From sequence record OR885871: a DNA stretch of 64,000 nt; one strand, 5' to 3'. The stretch is from Escherichia phage vB_EcoM_JN03. The position numbers were made by a program, and so were the translations under genes. Shown here piece after piece: positions 24,744-25,153 of the stretch (the stretch's first letter is position 1; every line of letters starts with the position of its first letter). The notes beneath the pieces are model-generated. The model was given only the letters and a program-made list of their open reading frames with translations. It ran no database searches and was not told the DNA's origin.

Positions 24744-24877
24744 CGCAAATCGAAGTTCTCTGGGCTTAACAGGTTCGACCCAACATGTTGTATATCGCCT
24801 AACTTACTCATGGGACGGCCACTTCTGTGTACAGACCTTGAGGGTTAAAAGATATACCCAAAGAACTTCGATTTGCG
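24744..24877. repeat. 21-bp inverted repeat (20/21 match) with ~92-nt spacer
   Basis: Left arm CGCAAATCGAAGTTCTCTGGG at 24744-24764, right arm CCCAAAGAACTTCGATTTGCG at 24857-24877. Confidence 0.65.
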
Positions 24878-25028
24878 TTGTGGGGGCAAACCCCCACACG
24901 GCTACTTCTTTGACAGGGATTGCTAGCCCTGGGGATTCCACTGTTTAAGGCTTTATCCCATAACGCCCGAGGCGCGTTTTAACTTATTGAAGCTTGCATA
25001 ACTGCAAACTGATGCGCTGTGAGACACA

Positions 25029-25153
25029 TCTTTGAGGGCACTCAGTGTACAACAGGCTCCGATATTTCATAGGGCATTACTGCCTCGGATTTAAGTTGCC
25101 TTTCTCCTGAAACTCCATACAGTCTCGCGTCTGACGCGGAATGCCCTCAAAGA
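25029..25153. repeat. 13-bp inverted repeat with ~100-nt spacer
   Basis: ATCTTTGAGGGCA ... TGCCCTCAAAGAT; spacer contains a CGCG-TCTGA-CGCG hairpin. Confidence 0.5.

What the first reader, a model, noticed from the sequence alone, without database searches (positions are those of the whole stretch)
24744..25153. Two further long-range inverted repeats (21 bp and 13 bp) bracketing ~100-nt structured spacers
24744-24764 pairs with 24857-24877 at 20 of 21 positions, enclosing a spacer with a TTCGACC tRNA-like loop. 25029-25041 pairs with 25141-25153, enclosing a CGCG-TCTGA-CGCG hairpin. A GTGGGGG-CAAA-CCCCCAC hairpin lies near 24880. Several independent long-range pairings in 1 kb suggest a multi-domain RNA fold rather than chance.
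Basis: seen in the sequence. Interest (0 to 1): 0.5.

Follow-up and report, generated by a model that had tools for sequence, protein, structure and literature searches.

The report
Stem-closed RNA cassettes in phage tRNA operon
The two inverted repeats are real, evolutionarily maintained RNA helices that close two separate small RNA cassettes inside a long, unannotated non-coding RNA operon (tRNAs, tRNA look-alikes and a tmRNA-like tag template) that is conserved in the Ackermannviridae family of phages and whose function is unknown.

Summary
Both inverted repeats exist and are longer than reported: 23 and 19 contiguous pairs on the minus strand, the strand of the neighbouring tRNAs. The window is a Kuttervirus (Ackermannviridae) phage. 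The repeats lie in a gene-poor stretch (about 22.3-26.2 kb) found at the same genomic position in every genus sampled.

The 24743-24878 helix keeps pairing through compensatory changes at 8 of 20 pairs across three clades. The 25025-25157 helix does so at 10 of 18 pairs across 14 variants. G.U wobbles favour the minus strand.

They are not domains of one fold. Each is a discrete cassette whose ends coincide with the helix ends, and each is gained or lost independently among relatives. The 25025-25157 helix encloses at least five unrelated interiors, from a 7-nt loop to 95 nt. It has paralogues at 24285-24366 and 25568-25632.

No Rfam family matches. There are no copies in E. coli genomes and one copy per phage. 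The 'TTCGACC tRNA-like loop' is on the wrong strand and is not conserved.

Best reading, inferred and untested: double-stranded processing or insulating stalks, RNase III-type, that bracket cargo RNAs in a polycistronic precursor. Nearby I found an unannotated tmRNA-like tag frame (ANDNTFLAVA).

The parts
24743..24878 (-). Cassette 'I2', a 136-nt stem-closed RNA. It has a closing helix P1 and a three-way junction carrying a variable central domain and a small 3' hairpin.
   Evidence: Inverted repeat. MFE and z-score. Covariance model R1 scores 103-147 bits on the sense strand and 29-47 on the antisense strand in relatives. Flanks differ between relatives right at the helix ends.
24857..24878 (-). 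I2 closing helix, 5' strand in RNA sense (ACGCAAAUCGAAGUUCUUUGGG).
   Evidence: 20 pairs counted on alignment A1: 98.2% paired and 8 pairs with changes on both sides. 0 of 500 shuffles reach the covariation score, and slid controls give 0 compensatory pairs.
24743..24764 (-). I2 closing helix, 3' strand (CCCAGAGAACUUCGAUUUGCGU).
   Evidence: The U.G at the one imperfect position pairs only on the minus strand.
24768..24789 (-). I2 internal hairpin P3 (AACAUGUUGGGUCGAACCUGUU).
   Evidence: A hairpin is predicted at the same place in all three clades, but with different sequence.
24880..24897 (-). G+C hairpin (GUGGGGG-UUUG-CCCCCAC) at the 3' end of module M4, immediately 5' of I2.
   Evidence: Stem kept with loop UCAG in MK-13 and Ag3. 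Compensated GGCGCCC-UUCG-GGGCGC(C) at the same position in phage 2050H1. No U-run follows, so it is not a terminator.
24879..25024 (-). Module M4, a structured spacer between the two cassettes. It is present in some relatives and absent in others.
   Evidence: BLAST breakpoints at 24872-24880 and 25027-25047. Sequence variants.
25025..25157 (-). Cassette 'I4': a conserved closing helix (the 'S-stem', CAUAUCUUUGAGGGCAUUC / GAGUGCCCUCAAAGAUGUG) enclosing a 95-nt three-way-junction interior (25044-25138).
   Evidence: The same helix encloses at least five unrelated interiors in relatives. 10 of 18 pairs are compensatory across 14 variants.
25126..25138 (-). CGCG-UCAGA-CGCG hairpin inside the I4 interior.
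   Evidence: Present and invariant in the window, MK-13 and Menlow versions.
24285..24366 (-). Paralogous S-stem cassette 'I1', with 20 contiguous pairs (UGCAACUUUGAUGGCUCUGG / CCAGAGCCAUCAAAGUUGUG).
   Evidence: 6 of 18 pairs compensatory across 9 variants. MAFFT aligns its arms to those of I4 on the shared CUUUGAKG / CMUCAAAG core.
25558..25642 (-). S-stem-like hairpin 'I5' at the 5' end of the predicted transcript.
   Evidence: The orthologue in phage 2050H1 has a compensated apex.
25652..25679 (-). Sigma-70-like promoter (TTATCA-16-TATAGT) upstream of I5.
   Evidence: The same arrangement (TTGTCA-16-TATAGT) precedes the I5 orthologue in phage 2050H1.
22327..22349 (-). Intrinsic terminator closing the non-coding operon (AGCCCGAUCAGGAAGAUCGGGCU + UCUUUUU).
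   Evidence: An equivalent terminator follows the array in phage 2050H1 and is annotated in Menlow, May and KWBSE43-6.
25156..25281 (-). Module M6, a ~125-nt tRNA-like RNA (acceptor GCCGUU / AACGGC, T-arm UGGGUUCGACUCCCU, encoded CCA). Its CCA abuts and overlaps the first two bases of the I4 helix.
   Evidence: Read from sequence. Compensatory changes in MK-13, in the acceptor (GCCGU/ACGGC to GCCGC/GCGGC) and the inner stem (UCUGAC/GUCAGA to CCUGAU/AUCAGG). 93-96% identical across genera where flanks are 74-85%.
25475..25507 (-). tmRNA-like tag reading frame (GCU AAU GAU AAC ACG UUC CUG GCA GUA GCU UAA = ANDNTFLAVA*), in the same operon upstream of the cassettes.
   Evidence: Conserved 10-codon AND...A frame with synonymous changes in all loci. 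Sub-threshold Rfam tmRNA_permuted and beta_tmRNA hits. Local similarity to E. coli ssrA 80-127.

Best explanation
**What it is.** The two inverted repeats are the closing helices of two independent small-RNA cassettes, 24743-24878 and 25025-25157. They are transcribed from the minus strand as part of a polycistronic non-coding operon. That operon runs from a promoter at about 25679-25652 to a terminator at 22349-22327. It also carries four tRNAs, several tRNA-like RNAs and a tmRNA-like tag template.

**How it most likely works.** Each helix has 19-23 uninterrupted base pairs, about two turns of A-form RNA. Each makes its cassette fold on its own. Each most likely serves as a double-stranded processing stalk cut by host RNase III. 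The analogues are the stalks that bracket 16S and 23S rRNA, and the RNase III sites between phage T7 early RNAs. Cleavage would release the enclosed ~90-nt domain and free the ends of its neighbours. For example, it would free the CCA end of the tRNA-like RNA that abuts the 25025-25157 helix.

**Shown.** The helices exist. They are maintained by compensatory change. The sense strand is the minus strand. The cassettes are discrete and exchangeable. The S-stem is a repeated scaffold that is conserved across the family.

**Inferred.** Transcription as one precursor, cleavage by RNase III, and any function of the cargo domains.
For: - **Covariation.** I2 helix: 98.2% paired, 8 of 20 pairs changed on both sides, 0 of 500 shuffles reach the covariation score, slid registers give none. 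I4 helix: 96.4% canonical, 10 of 18 pairs compensatory in 14 variants. Paralogue I1: 99.4% canonical, 6 of 18.
- **Strand.** There are 13 G.U against 5 A.C cells in I4 and 11 G.U cells in I2. Folding energies are better on the minus strand. All four tRNAs, the promoter and the terminator are on the minus strand.
- **Discreteness.** Homology breaks at 24878/24880, 25027-25047 and 25139-25169. In Ag3 and EspM4VN the I2 3' arm is joined directly to sequence that lies 190 nt further on in the window.
- **Scaffold behaviour.** The same helix holds a 7-nt loop in ZQ1 and Madison. It holds four other unrelated interiors of about 50-95 nt in other phages, one of them with a T-arm-like GGCGGGUUCGAGUCCCG. 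This shows that the helix itself is the selected part.
- **Position.** The helix starts at the CCA of tRNA-like M6. I2 starts right after the M4 terminal hairpin, the slot occupied by an S-stem in phage 2050H1.
- **Age.** S-stems with compensated apices occur in Miltonvirus phage 2050H1, whose neighbouring protein is only 42% identical.
- **Length.** Helices of 19-23 contiguous pairs meet the roughly 20-bp requirement of E. coli RNase III. That requirement is established knowledge and was not tested here.
Against: - No transcript, cleavage or end-mapping data exist for this region. Literature searches found none.
- RNase III has little sequence specificity, yet the base of the S-stem (CACAUCU...AGAUGUG) is sequence-conserved across genera. 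That fits a sequence-specific protein partner better.
- The I2 interior keeps conserved sequence blocks (CUUAACC, GGCGAUA, ACAA, AUG..GGG) across clades, so it is more than a spacer.
- A pure processing site would not need 90-nt structured interiors.
- Limestonevirus appears to lack such stems. No long inverted repeat was found in its 1.5-kb region, and I2 is absent from it and from 2050H1. The cassettes are therefore dispensable.
Confidence: 0.45

Rival explanations
1. Stand-alone stable small RNAs in which the long terminal helix is a protein-docking site and the apical domain is variable. This is the architecture of Y RNAs (YrlA/YrlB with Ro60/Rsr). The same architecture would serve decoys for a host nuclease or defence protein.
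For: - The architecture matches: a long 5'/3' helix plus a variable apical module.
- One interior variant (phage 38 type) carries a T-arm-like hairpin, as YrlA does.
- The base of the S-stem is sequence-conserved across genera.
- The I2 5' strand contains AUCGAAG. This resembles the GNCGAAN0-1G motif described near the 5' end of bacterial Y RNAs (PMC4201824).
- Salmonella, one host, has Rsr (same paper).
Against: - The motif's first base is A, not G. The motif is replaced by GUAGAG, with compensation on the other strand, in the Agtrevirus clade. It therefore behaves as helix, not as a recognition sequence.
- No Rfam Y RNA hit appears at E up to 10.
- The cassettes also occur in Klebsiella, Shigella and E. 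coli phages. E. coli K-12 lacking Rsr is my recollection and was not tested.
- Perfect 20-bp helices are unusual in stable bacterial RNAs because RNase III cuts them (established knowledge).
Confidence: 0.2
2. Peripheral domains of one very large structured RNA. It would be either an expanded tmRNA-like RNA whose tag frame lies at 25507-25475, or a GOLLD/ROOL-like ornate phage RNA next to tRNAs. The helices would be expansion segments.
For: - One promoter and one terminator bracket the whole array.
- A tmRNA-like tag frame is conserved upstream.
- The whole 22.0-26.4 kb stretch is predicted to be densely structured.
- GOLLD and ROOL are large phage RNAs found beside tRNAs (established knowledge).
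Against: - Modules are gained and lost independently: M7, M6, the I4 interior, M4, I2 and the mini tRNA-like element.
- No long-range pairing between modules was found.
- No Rfam GOLLD, ROOL or tmRNA match reaches threshold.
- No tRNA-like domain with a G3.U70 acceptor pair could be found to go with the tag frame.
- Bona fide tRNAs with CCA ends inside the array imply cleavage into pieces.
Confidence: 0.15
3. DNA-level elements: terminal inverted repeats of a miniature transposable element, or recombination or cruciform sites that mediate cassette exchange.
For: - The cassettes have exact boundaries at the repeat ends, and their interiors are swapped between relatives. This resembles insertion or recombination at a palindromic site.
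- Homing endonuclease genes occur in this region in some relatives.
- The conserved arms could serve as homology for recombination whatever their RNA role.
Against: - There is one copy per phage genome, always at the same position.
- E. coli genomes hold no copy.
- There are no other copies in the 64-kb window.
- Orthologues are only 70-74% identical yet stay paired through compensatory changes. G.U wobbles are confined to one strand. That is the signature of selection on a transcript, not on protein-bound DNA ends.
Confidence: 0.05
4. Decaying remnants of tRNA genes, or chance palindromes with no function.
For: The region is full of degenerate tRNA-like pieces that ARAGORN calls only at a relaxed threshold. 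Related phages carry different sets of tRNAs at this locus.
Against: - Compensatory substitutions, z-scores of -4.5 to -7.7, and conservation across genera.
- Expected chance frequency of about 5e-5 per window for repeat 1 (my arithmetic).
- No tRNA features in either cassette.
Confidence: 0.03

Closest known systems
RNase III processing stalks of bacterial rRNA operons (helices formed by sequences flanking 16S and 23S rRNA) and the RNase III sites between phage T7 early RNAs
   Same: A long-range inverted repeat of about two helical turns brackets a structured RNA inside a polycistronic precursor. The helix, rather than its content, is the conserved feature. tRNAs share the same transcript.
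   Different: The cargo is only 7-95 nt and is interchangeable. The base of the helix is sequence-conserved. Cleavage has not been shown. The helices form a small paralogous family within one phage operon.
Stable RNAs of the phage T4 tRNA gene cluster (species 1 and 2, rnaD and rnaC). Recalled from the literature, not tested here.
   Same: Non-tRNA structured RNAs of about 120-140 nt and unknown function, co-transcribed and co-processed with phage tRNAs.
   Different: No sequence or Rfam relationship. The Ackermannviridae array is much larger (about 3-4 kb) and contains repeated long helices, tRNA-like RNAs with CCA ends and a tag frame.
Bacterial Y RNAs (YrlA/YrlB; PMC4201824)
   Same: A long helix formed by the 5' and 3' ends, plus a variable apical module that can include tRNA-like arms. 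They are also encoded by some phages.
   Different: No Ro60/TROVE match among the five flanking ORFs scanned. The Rsr-binding motif is not conserved. No covariance-model match. I2 has no T-arm or D-arm.
GOLLD and ROOL large ornate RNAs of phages
   Same: Unexplained, highly structured non-coding RNA next to tRNA genes in phage genomes.
   Different: No Rfam match. The region behaves as an array of separable cassettes, not as one conserved fold.
tmRNA (SsrA). This applies to the neighbouring module, not to the two repeats.
   Same: A 10-codon frame that starts with Ala-Asn-Asp and ends with hydrophobic-Ala plus UAA. It is preceded by AAAAAUAAUC, much like AAAAAUAGUC upstream of the E. coli resume codon.
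   Different: No alanine-type tRNA-like domain was found. ARAGORN and Rfam do not call a tmRNA.

Membership tests
Any Rfam 15 family | Covariance-model score at or above the family's gathering threshold | tested here: not met
   Only four tRNAs pass in the window. With E up to 10 nothing overlaps 24743-25157.
   ARAGORN, even at a relaxed threshold with introns allowed, and Rfam find nothing in 24743-25157. TTCGACC is on the plus strand and is not conserved in the other clades.
RNase III substrate | Uninterrupted double-stranded RNA of about 20 bp or more | tested here: met
   23 contiguous pairs in I2, 19 in I4 and 20 in I1 on the minus-sense RNA.
RNase III substrate | Cleavage by RNase III in vivo or in vitro | not testable with these tools
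   No transcriptome or biochemical data were found.
Bacterial Y RNA (YrlA-like) | GNCGAAN0-1G motif near the 5' end (PMC4201824) | tested here: not met
   I2 has AUCGAAG, with A where G is expected. The Agtrevirus clade has GUAGAG with compensating changes on the other strand. I4 has no such motif.
Bacterial Y RNA (YrlA-like) | Internal T-arm and D-arm-like stem-loops; gene next to a Ro60/TROVE gene | tested here: not met
   Neither arm is present in I2 or in the window's I4 interior. Pfam finds no TROVE domain in the flanking ORFs tested. Only the phage-38-type interior has a T-arm-like hairpin.
Miniature inverted-repeat transposable element | Multiple dispersed copies with terminal inverted repeats and target-site duplications | tested here: not met
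   One copy per phage at a fixed position. No match in 5,426 E. coli genomes.
Intrinsic terminator (GTGGGGG hairpin at 24880-24897) | G+C hairpin followed by a U-run | tested here: not met
   It is not among the terminator-like sites. The downstream sequence on the minus strand is AACGCAAAUCG.
tmRNA (neighbouring module at 25378-25691) | Tag reading frame with an Ala resume codon and a hydrophobic C-terminus | tested here: met
   ANDNTFLAVA, ANDDVVLMAA, ANDSEVLMAA and ANDNAYLMVA, conserved with synonymous changes.
tmRNA (neighbouring module at 25378-25691) | tRNA-like domain with a G3.U70 acceptor pair, T-arm and CCA; detection by ARAGORN or Rfam at threshold | tested here: not met
   No acceptor pairing with G3.U70 was found for any T-arm in 25100-26300. 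ARAGORN finds none. Rfam gives 19-30 bits against a threshold of 47.
GOLLD / ROOL | Match to the family covariance model | tested here: not met
   No hit at E up to 10 in 21900-26600.

The most novel reading that the evidence does not exclude
Ackermannviridae phages carry a previously undescribed kind of non-coding RNA operon. In it, a family of conserved long helices (S-stems and the I2 helix) acts as a scaffold that displays exchangeable RNA cargo domains. It sits alongside tRNA mimics with CCA ends and a tmRNA-like tagging template that lacks a recognisable alanine-accepting domain. Together these would form a modular RNA toolkit for taking over or disarming host translation quality control, RNA processing or tRNA-targeting defences.
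Probability: 0.2. Interest if true: 0.85.

Novelty: new variant of a known kind. Interest (0 to 1): 0.62.

Why it matters
- **An overlooked locus in therapeutically used phages.** Ackermannviridae (ViI, CBA120, Det7, S117, Klebsiella Taipeivirus and others) are widely isolated and used for biocontrol and therapy. In GenBank records their 2-4 kb 'gene-less' tRNA region is either left blank or filled with spurious small ORFs.
- **It is not junk.** This stretch is a conserved, densely structured RNA operon with covarying helices. That gives a concrete set of new RNA genes to annotate and test.
- **Evolution of the array.** The cassette behaviour, one helix with many cargos, offers a natural system for studying how structured RNAs are exchanged between phages.
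- **Trans-translation.** If the tag frame is functional, these phages interfere with or supply trans-translation. That has been shown for very few phages.

Tried and rejected
- **Rfam.** Scans at gathering threshold and at E up to 10 on the window and on relatives found only tRNAs and sub-threshold tmRNA fragments.
- **ARAGORN.** Runs with introns allowed and a relaxed threshold gave three doubtful 'intron' tRNAs elsewhere in the array and nothing in the two cassettes.
- **Wider search for I2.** The pattern CGATAN{0,2}ACAANATRNKGGG in IMG/VR returned 120 stretches, mostly chance. Covariance model R1 confirmed only eight of the 80 loci, all Ackermannviridae isolates. R1 found no copy in Limestone or 2050H1 and no paralogue in the window.
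- **MITE hypothesis.** Rejected: no E. coli genome match.
- **Terminal-repeat or packaging-site idea.** It was prompted by 'repeat_region' features and by records that start near here. The features are only the auto-annotated 21-nt arm.
- **Y RNA motif.** It does not survive comparison between clades.
- **tRNA-like domain for the tag frame.** I tried pairing every T-arm 3' strand against all upstream 7-mers and local alignment to E. coli ssrA. Only the tag region and a T-arm/CCA stretch align. The other alignments (scores 23-25) look like chance.
- **Flanking proteins.** Pfam and PHROGs give no RNA-related function for the 189-aa, 74-aa, 48-aa and 77-aa ORFs.
- **Common I2 interior structure.** RNAalifold and per-clade folding agree only on P1, the three-way junction and the 3' hairpin. 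The central domain is unresolved.
- **Literature.** Searches for Ackermannviridae, Kuttervirus or CBA120 transcriptomes, non-coding RNAs or tmRNA found nothing relevant. The supplements held for the tmRNA database paper contain no phage names.
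Full report
**Where the window comes from.** The stretch 24000-26400 is 99.8% identical to Salmonella phage S117 and many other Kuttervirus genomes of the family Ackermannviridae. It has weaker matches in Agtrevirus, Taipeivirus and other members.

The finding lies in a gene-poor stretch, about 22040-26420. On one side is a tail-needle-knob gene (21518-22036, minus strand; Pfam Phage_tail_NK). On the other are a 189-aa gene of unknown function (26424-26993, minus) and the gp6-like baseplate wedge gene. Four tRNA genes (Ser, Gln, Asn, Met) sit at 22664-23962, all on the minus strand.

The same gene-poor stretch, ending in tRNA-Met, occupies the same position in every genus I fetched:
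- Kuttervirus, Agtrevirus and Taipeivirus;
- unclassified Aglimvirinae;
- Limestonevirus and Miltonvirus.

Record authors either leave it blank or fill it with short ORFs on either strand.

**The observation.** Both repeats are real and longer than described. On the minus strand, repeat 1 forms 23 contiguous pairs (24878-24856 with 24765-24743). Its one 'mismatch' is a U.G wobble on that strand and a C.A clash on the plus strand. Repeat 2 forms 19 contiguous pairs (25157-25139 with 25043-25025).

Both segments fold better as minus-strand RNA:
- 24735-24900: -73.9 kcal/mol, z -7.7, against -68.2, z -7.0 on the plus strand.
- 25015-25165: -56.9, z -4.45, against -49.8, z -3.1.

Across the 64-kb window there are 25 stems of at least 14 contiguous pairs within 220 nt. 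Shuffles give 9 on average. Three of the four longest are at 24285-25157.

**Comparative evidence for repeat 1 (cassette I2, 24743-24878).** Homologues fall into three clades that are only 70-74% identical to one another:
- Kuttervirus;
- Agtrevirus (MK-13, Ag3, EspM4VN);
- Taipeivirus plus several E. coli and Salmonella Aglimvirinae.

In an alignment of 11 distinct sequences, the 20-pair closing helix is paired in 98.2% of cells. Eight pairs change on both sides, for example UCGA/UCGA to GUAG/CUAC. No shuffle of 500 reaches the observed covariation score. Sliding the 3' strand by 1-3 columns removes all compensatory pairs. Eleven cells are G.U and would be A.C on the other strand.

A covariance model built from this alignment scores 103-147 bits on the sense strand and 29-47 on the antisense strand. 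It finds exactly one copy per genome. It finds none in Limestone or Miltonvirus phages and no paralogue elsewhere in the window. A pattern scan of IMG/VR followed by the model recovered only Ackermannviridae isolates. There is no match in 5,426 complete E. coli genomes.

Indels in the alignment are not multiples of three, so the element is not coding.

Inside the helix, all clades are predicted to form a three-way junction with a small 3' hairpin. The central domain could not be resolved. Conserved blocks (CUUAACC, GGCGAUA, ACAA, AUG..GGG) show that it is not a mere spacer.

**Cassette boundaries.** BLAST homology to relatives breaks at 24878/24880, 25027-25047, 25139-25169, 25281-25285, 25378-25382, 25685-25691 and 25766. 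The I2 boundaries fall exactly at the helix ends.
- In Ag3 and EspM4VN the last base of the 3' arm is followed directly by sequence that lies about 190 nt further on in the window.
- The 5' flank also differs between clades.

**Comparative evidence for repeat 2 (cassette I4, 25025-25157).** This is the most informative result. Essentially the same helix (CACAUCUUUGAGGGCA...UGCCCUCAAAGAUGUG) is present in all relatives at this point of the array. What it encloses differs completely:
- a 7-nt loop in ZQ1, Madison, CECAV_050 and RPN242;
- a 50-nt interior in Ag3 and maane;
- a 53-nt interior with a T-arm-like GGCGGGUUCGAGUCCCG in phage 38 and many other Kuttervirus;
- another ~55-nt interior in May and EspM4VN;
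- the 95-nt interior of the window, MK-13 and Menlow;
- 121-nt versions with a variant helix in KWBSE43-6 and EspM4VN (their interiors were not compared).

Over 14 helix variants, 96.4% of cells are canonical and 10 of 18 pairs show compensatory double changes. There are 13 G.U against 5 A.C cells on the minus sense.

The helix has paralogues in the same array.
- I1 (24285-24366) has 20 contiguous pairs, and 6 of 18 pairs are compensatory over 9 variants.
- I5 (25568-25632) is the second paralogue.
- They share the CUUUGAKG/CMUCAAAG core.

Serratia phage 2050H1 (Miltonvirus) has a neighbouring protein only 42% identical to the window's. It nevertheless carries recognisable versions with compensated apices (CACAUCUCAGAGUUCGGU/ACCGAACUCUGAGAUGUG and others). 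The helix is therefore an old, selected scaffold, and its content is exchangeable.

**Context on the transcribed strand.** A sigma-70-like promoter (TTATCA-16-TATAGT, 25679-25652) precedes I5. It is conserved as TTGTCA-16-TATAGT in phage 2050H1. An intrinsic terminator lies at 22349-22327.

Between them, in RNA order, lie:
1. I5.
2. A module with a tmRNA-like tag frame.
3. M7, a small tRNA-like RNA with a GAAA tetraloop in place of an anticodon loop. It ends in CCA.
4. M6, a ~125-nt tRNA-like RNA. Its acceptor and inner stem covary, and it ends in an encoded CCA.
5. I4, which starts at that CCA.
6. M4, which ends in the GUGGGGG hairpin.
7. I2.
8. Further structured modules, then I1, a deeply conserved ~210-nt module, and a ~100-nt RNA ending in CCA.
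9. tRNA-Met, a 74-aa ORF, and more tRNAs and tRNA-like RNAs.

In phage 2050H1 an S-stem occupies the slot right after the M4-type hairpin, where the window has I2.

**Interpretation.** The evidence establishes four things:
- RNA-level selection on both helices;
- the minus strand as the sense strand;
- cassette independence;
- a repeated helix scaffold.

It does not establish function. I favour processing or insulating stalks for four reasons:
- The helix, not the cargo, is what is conserved, and the minimal version is a bare hairpin.
- The helices sit at junctions between RNAs that need defined ends. One abuts a CCA.
- Their uninterrupted length of 19-23 bp is what E. coli RNase III needs and what stable bacterial RNAs normally avoid.
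- The closest precedents are the rRNA processing stalks and the T7 RNase III sites.

Two observations count against a purely structural signal: the sequence conservation of the helix base and the conserved I2 interior. They keep a protein-docking (Y RNA-like) model alive.

The Y RNA motif resemblance (AUCGAAG versus GNCGAAN0-1G; PMC4201824) does not hold in the Agtrevirus clade. A single giant fold is disfavoured by independent module loss. DNA-level mobile-element models are disfavoured by single copy number, fixed position and strand-specific wobble pairs.

- The TTCGACC 'T-loop' is on the wrong strand and is not conserved.
- The CGCG hairpin is invariant, so it is uninformative.
- The GTGGGGG hairpin is supported by loop variation and by a fully compensated counterpart in phage 2050H1. 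It is not a terminator.

**Side finding.** At 25507-25475 the minus strand reads AAAAAUAAUC GCU AAU GAU AAC ACG UUC CUG GCA GUA GCU UAA UAG, which encodes ANDNTFLAVA.

All relatives keep a 10-codon frame at this site: ANDNTFLAVA, ANDDVVLMAA, ANDSEVLMAA, and ANDNAYLMVA in 2050H1. The differences include synonymous changes. The frame aligns with E. coli ssrA 80-127 and draws sub-threshold Rfam tmRNA hits.

No alanine-type tRNA-like domain was found. No tmRNA is annotated in any record I opened, and the literature I could search does not mention one. This remains unexplained.

**Novelty.** The elements match no curated RNA family and no description I could find. The kind of thing they most resemble is known: structured non-coding RNAs and processing helices in phage or rRNA/tRNA operons. 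I therefore rate them a new variant of a known kind. There is a moderate chance that the operon as a whole represents something new.

Noticed in passing
window 25475-25507 (minus strand); module about 25378-25691: tmRNA-like tag reading frame ANDNTFLAVA* followed by a second stop. It is preceded by AAAAAUAAUC, as upstream of the E. coli ssrA resume codon. It is conserved as a 10-codon AND...A frame with synonymous changes in every Ackermannviridae locus fetched. No alanine-type tRNA-like domain was found, and no tmRNA is annotated in any record opened.
   Followed up: partly
window 25156-25281 (minus strand): M6, a ~125-nt tRNA-like RNA. It has acceptor GCCGUU/AACGGC, an inner 7-bp stem UCUGACU/AGUCAGA, a GGUCA-GCGC-UGGCC hairpin, a T-arm and an encoded N-CCA. 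The acceptor and inner stem show compensatory changes in MK-13. It is 93-96% identical across genera where flanks are 74-85%. It is lost by deletion in Menlow, which keeps only the last 12 nt.
   Followed up: partly
window 25284-25353 (minus strand): M7, a ~70-nt tRNA-like minihelix. It has acceptor GAUGGGAG/CUCCAAUC, a stem capped by a GAAA tetraloop where the anticodon loop should be, and T-arm GAAGGUUCGAGUCCUUC, followed by CCA. It is absent from phage 38 and ZQ1. Rfam gives only a weak tRNA-Sec hit (16 bits).
   Followed up: partly
window 25925-26016 and 25697-25766 (minus strand): Two more tRNA-like elements upstream of the promoter. The first has a canonical D-arm (UAGCUCAGAAUCAGAGAGC) and acceptor GCGUGAU/AUCACGC. 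That acceptor is fully compensated to CAUGGUU/AACCAUG in Serratia phage 2050H1. The second is a 67-nt mini 'tRNA' that some pipelines call tRNA-Ala. It has U3.G70 rather than G3.U70.
   Followed up: partly
window 22412-22564, 22573-22661, 22828-22955, 23436-23563 (minus strand): Acceptor plus T-arm pairs that enclose 50-100-nt insertions instead of normal D and anticodon arms. ARAGORN calls two of them only at a relaxed threshold, as tRNAs with 'introns'. Relatives annotate 'tRNA-OTHER' or 'tRNA-undetermined' in this part of the array.
   Followed up: no
window 24079-24290 (minus strand): A ~210-nt module just upstream of tRNA-Met. It contains GGAAAGCCCUGGAAAAAUAAAC and CAUGAACUGAUCAUG and is recognisably conserved even in Miltonvirus phage 2050H1. 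It is probably the most deeply conserved non-tRNA RNA of the array.
   Followed up: no
window 25652-25679 and 22327-22349 (minus strand): A sigma-70-like promoter conserved between distant genera, and an intrinsic terminator. Together they delimit a ~3.3-kb non-coding transcription unit.
   Followed up: partly
window 26220-26366 and 23649-23873 (minus strand): Two small real-looking ORFs embedded in the RNA region. One is a 48-aa hydrophobic peptide with a GGAGGG ribosome-binding site (PHROG 8415). The other is a 74-aa protein between tRNA-Met and tRNA-Asn (PHROG 3684, with a weak DUF2188 match).
   Followed up: partly
window 26424-26993 versus 24000-26400: Mosaicism. Phage S117 is 99.8% identical to the window over the RNA region, but its adjacent 189-aa protein is only 64.7% identical. 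A recombination breakpoint therefore lies at the edge of the array.
   Followed up: no
L009 (Shigella phage Ag3) 2591-2700: A sub-threshold Rfam hit to the enterobacterial sRNA STnc100 (33.7 bits, threshold 47, E 5e-4). It lies in a module of the Ag3 array that the window lacks.
   Followed up: no
GenBank MN871475.1 and OR844942.1 (hits H5, H132, H162): Records named 'Pseudomonas phage Pa-sanjiao' and 'Enterococcus phage Efm 3-10' match the window's Kuttervirus sequence closely. Pa-sanjiao is 99.5% identical over 24000-26400. Efm 3-10 has a 100% identical 189-aa protein and gives the same hit to the MK-13 I2 query as typical Kuttervirus records. The host labels are probably wrong, or the records are contaminated.
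   Followed up: no
window 10434-10515 (minus strand): Another 19-pair stem (GAUGUCUAAAUAUUUUGUG / CAUGAAAUAUUUGGGCAUC, with G.U allowed), outside the RNA operon and between genes.
   Followed up: no
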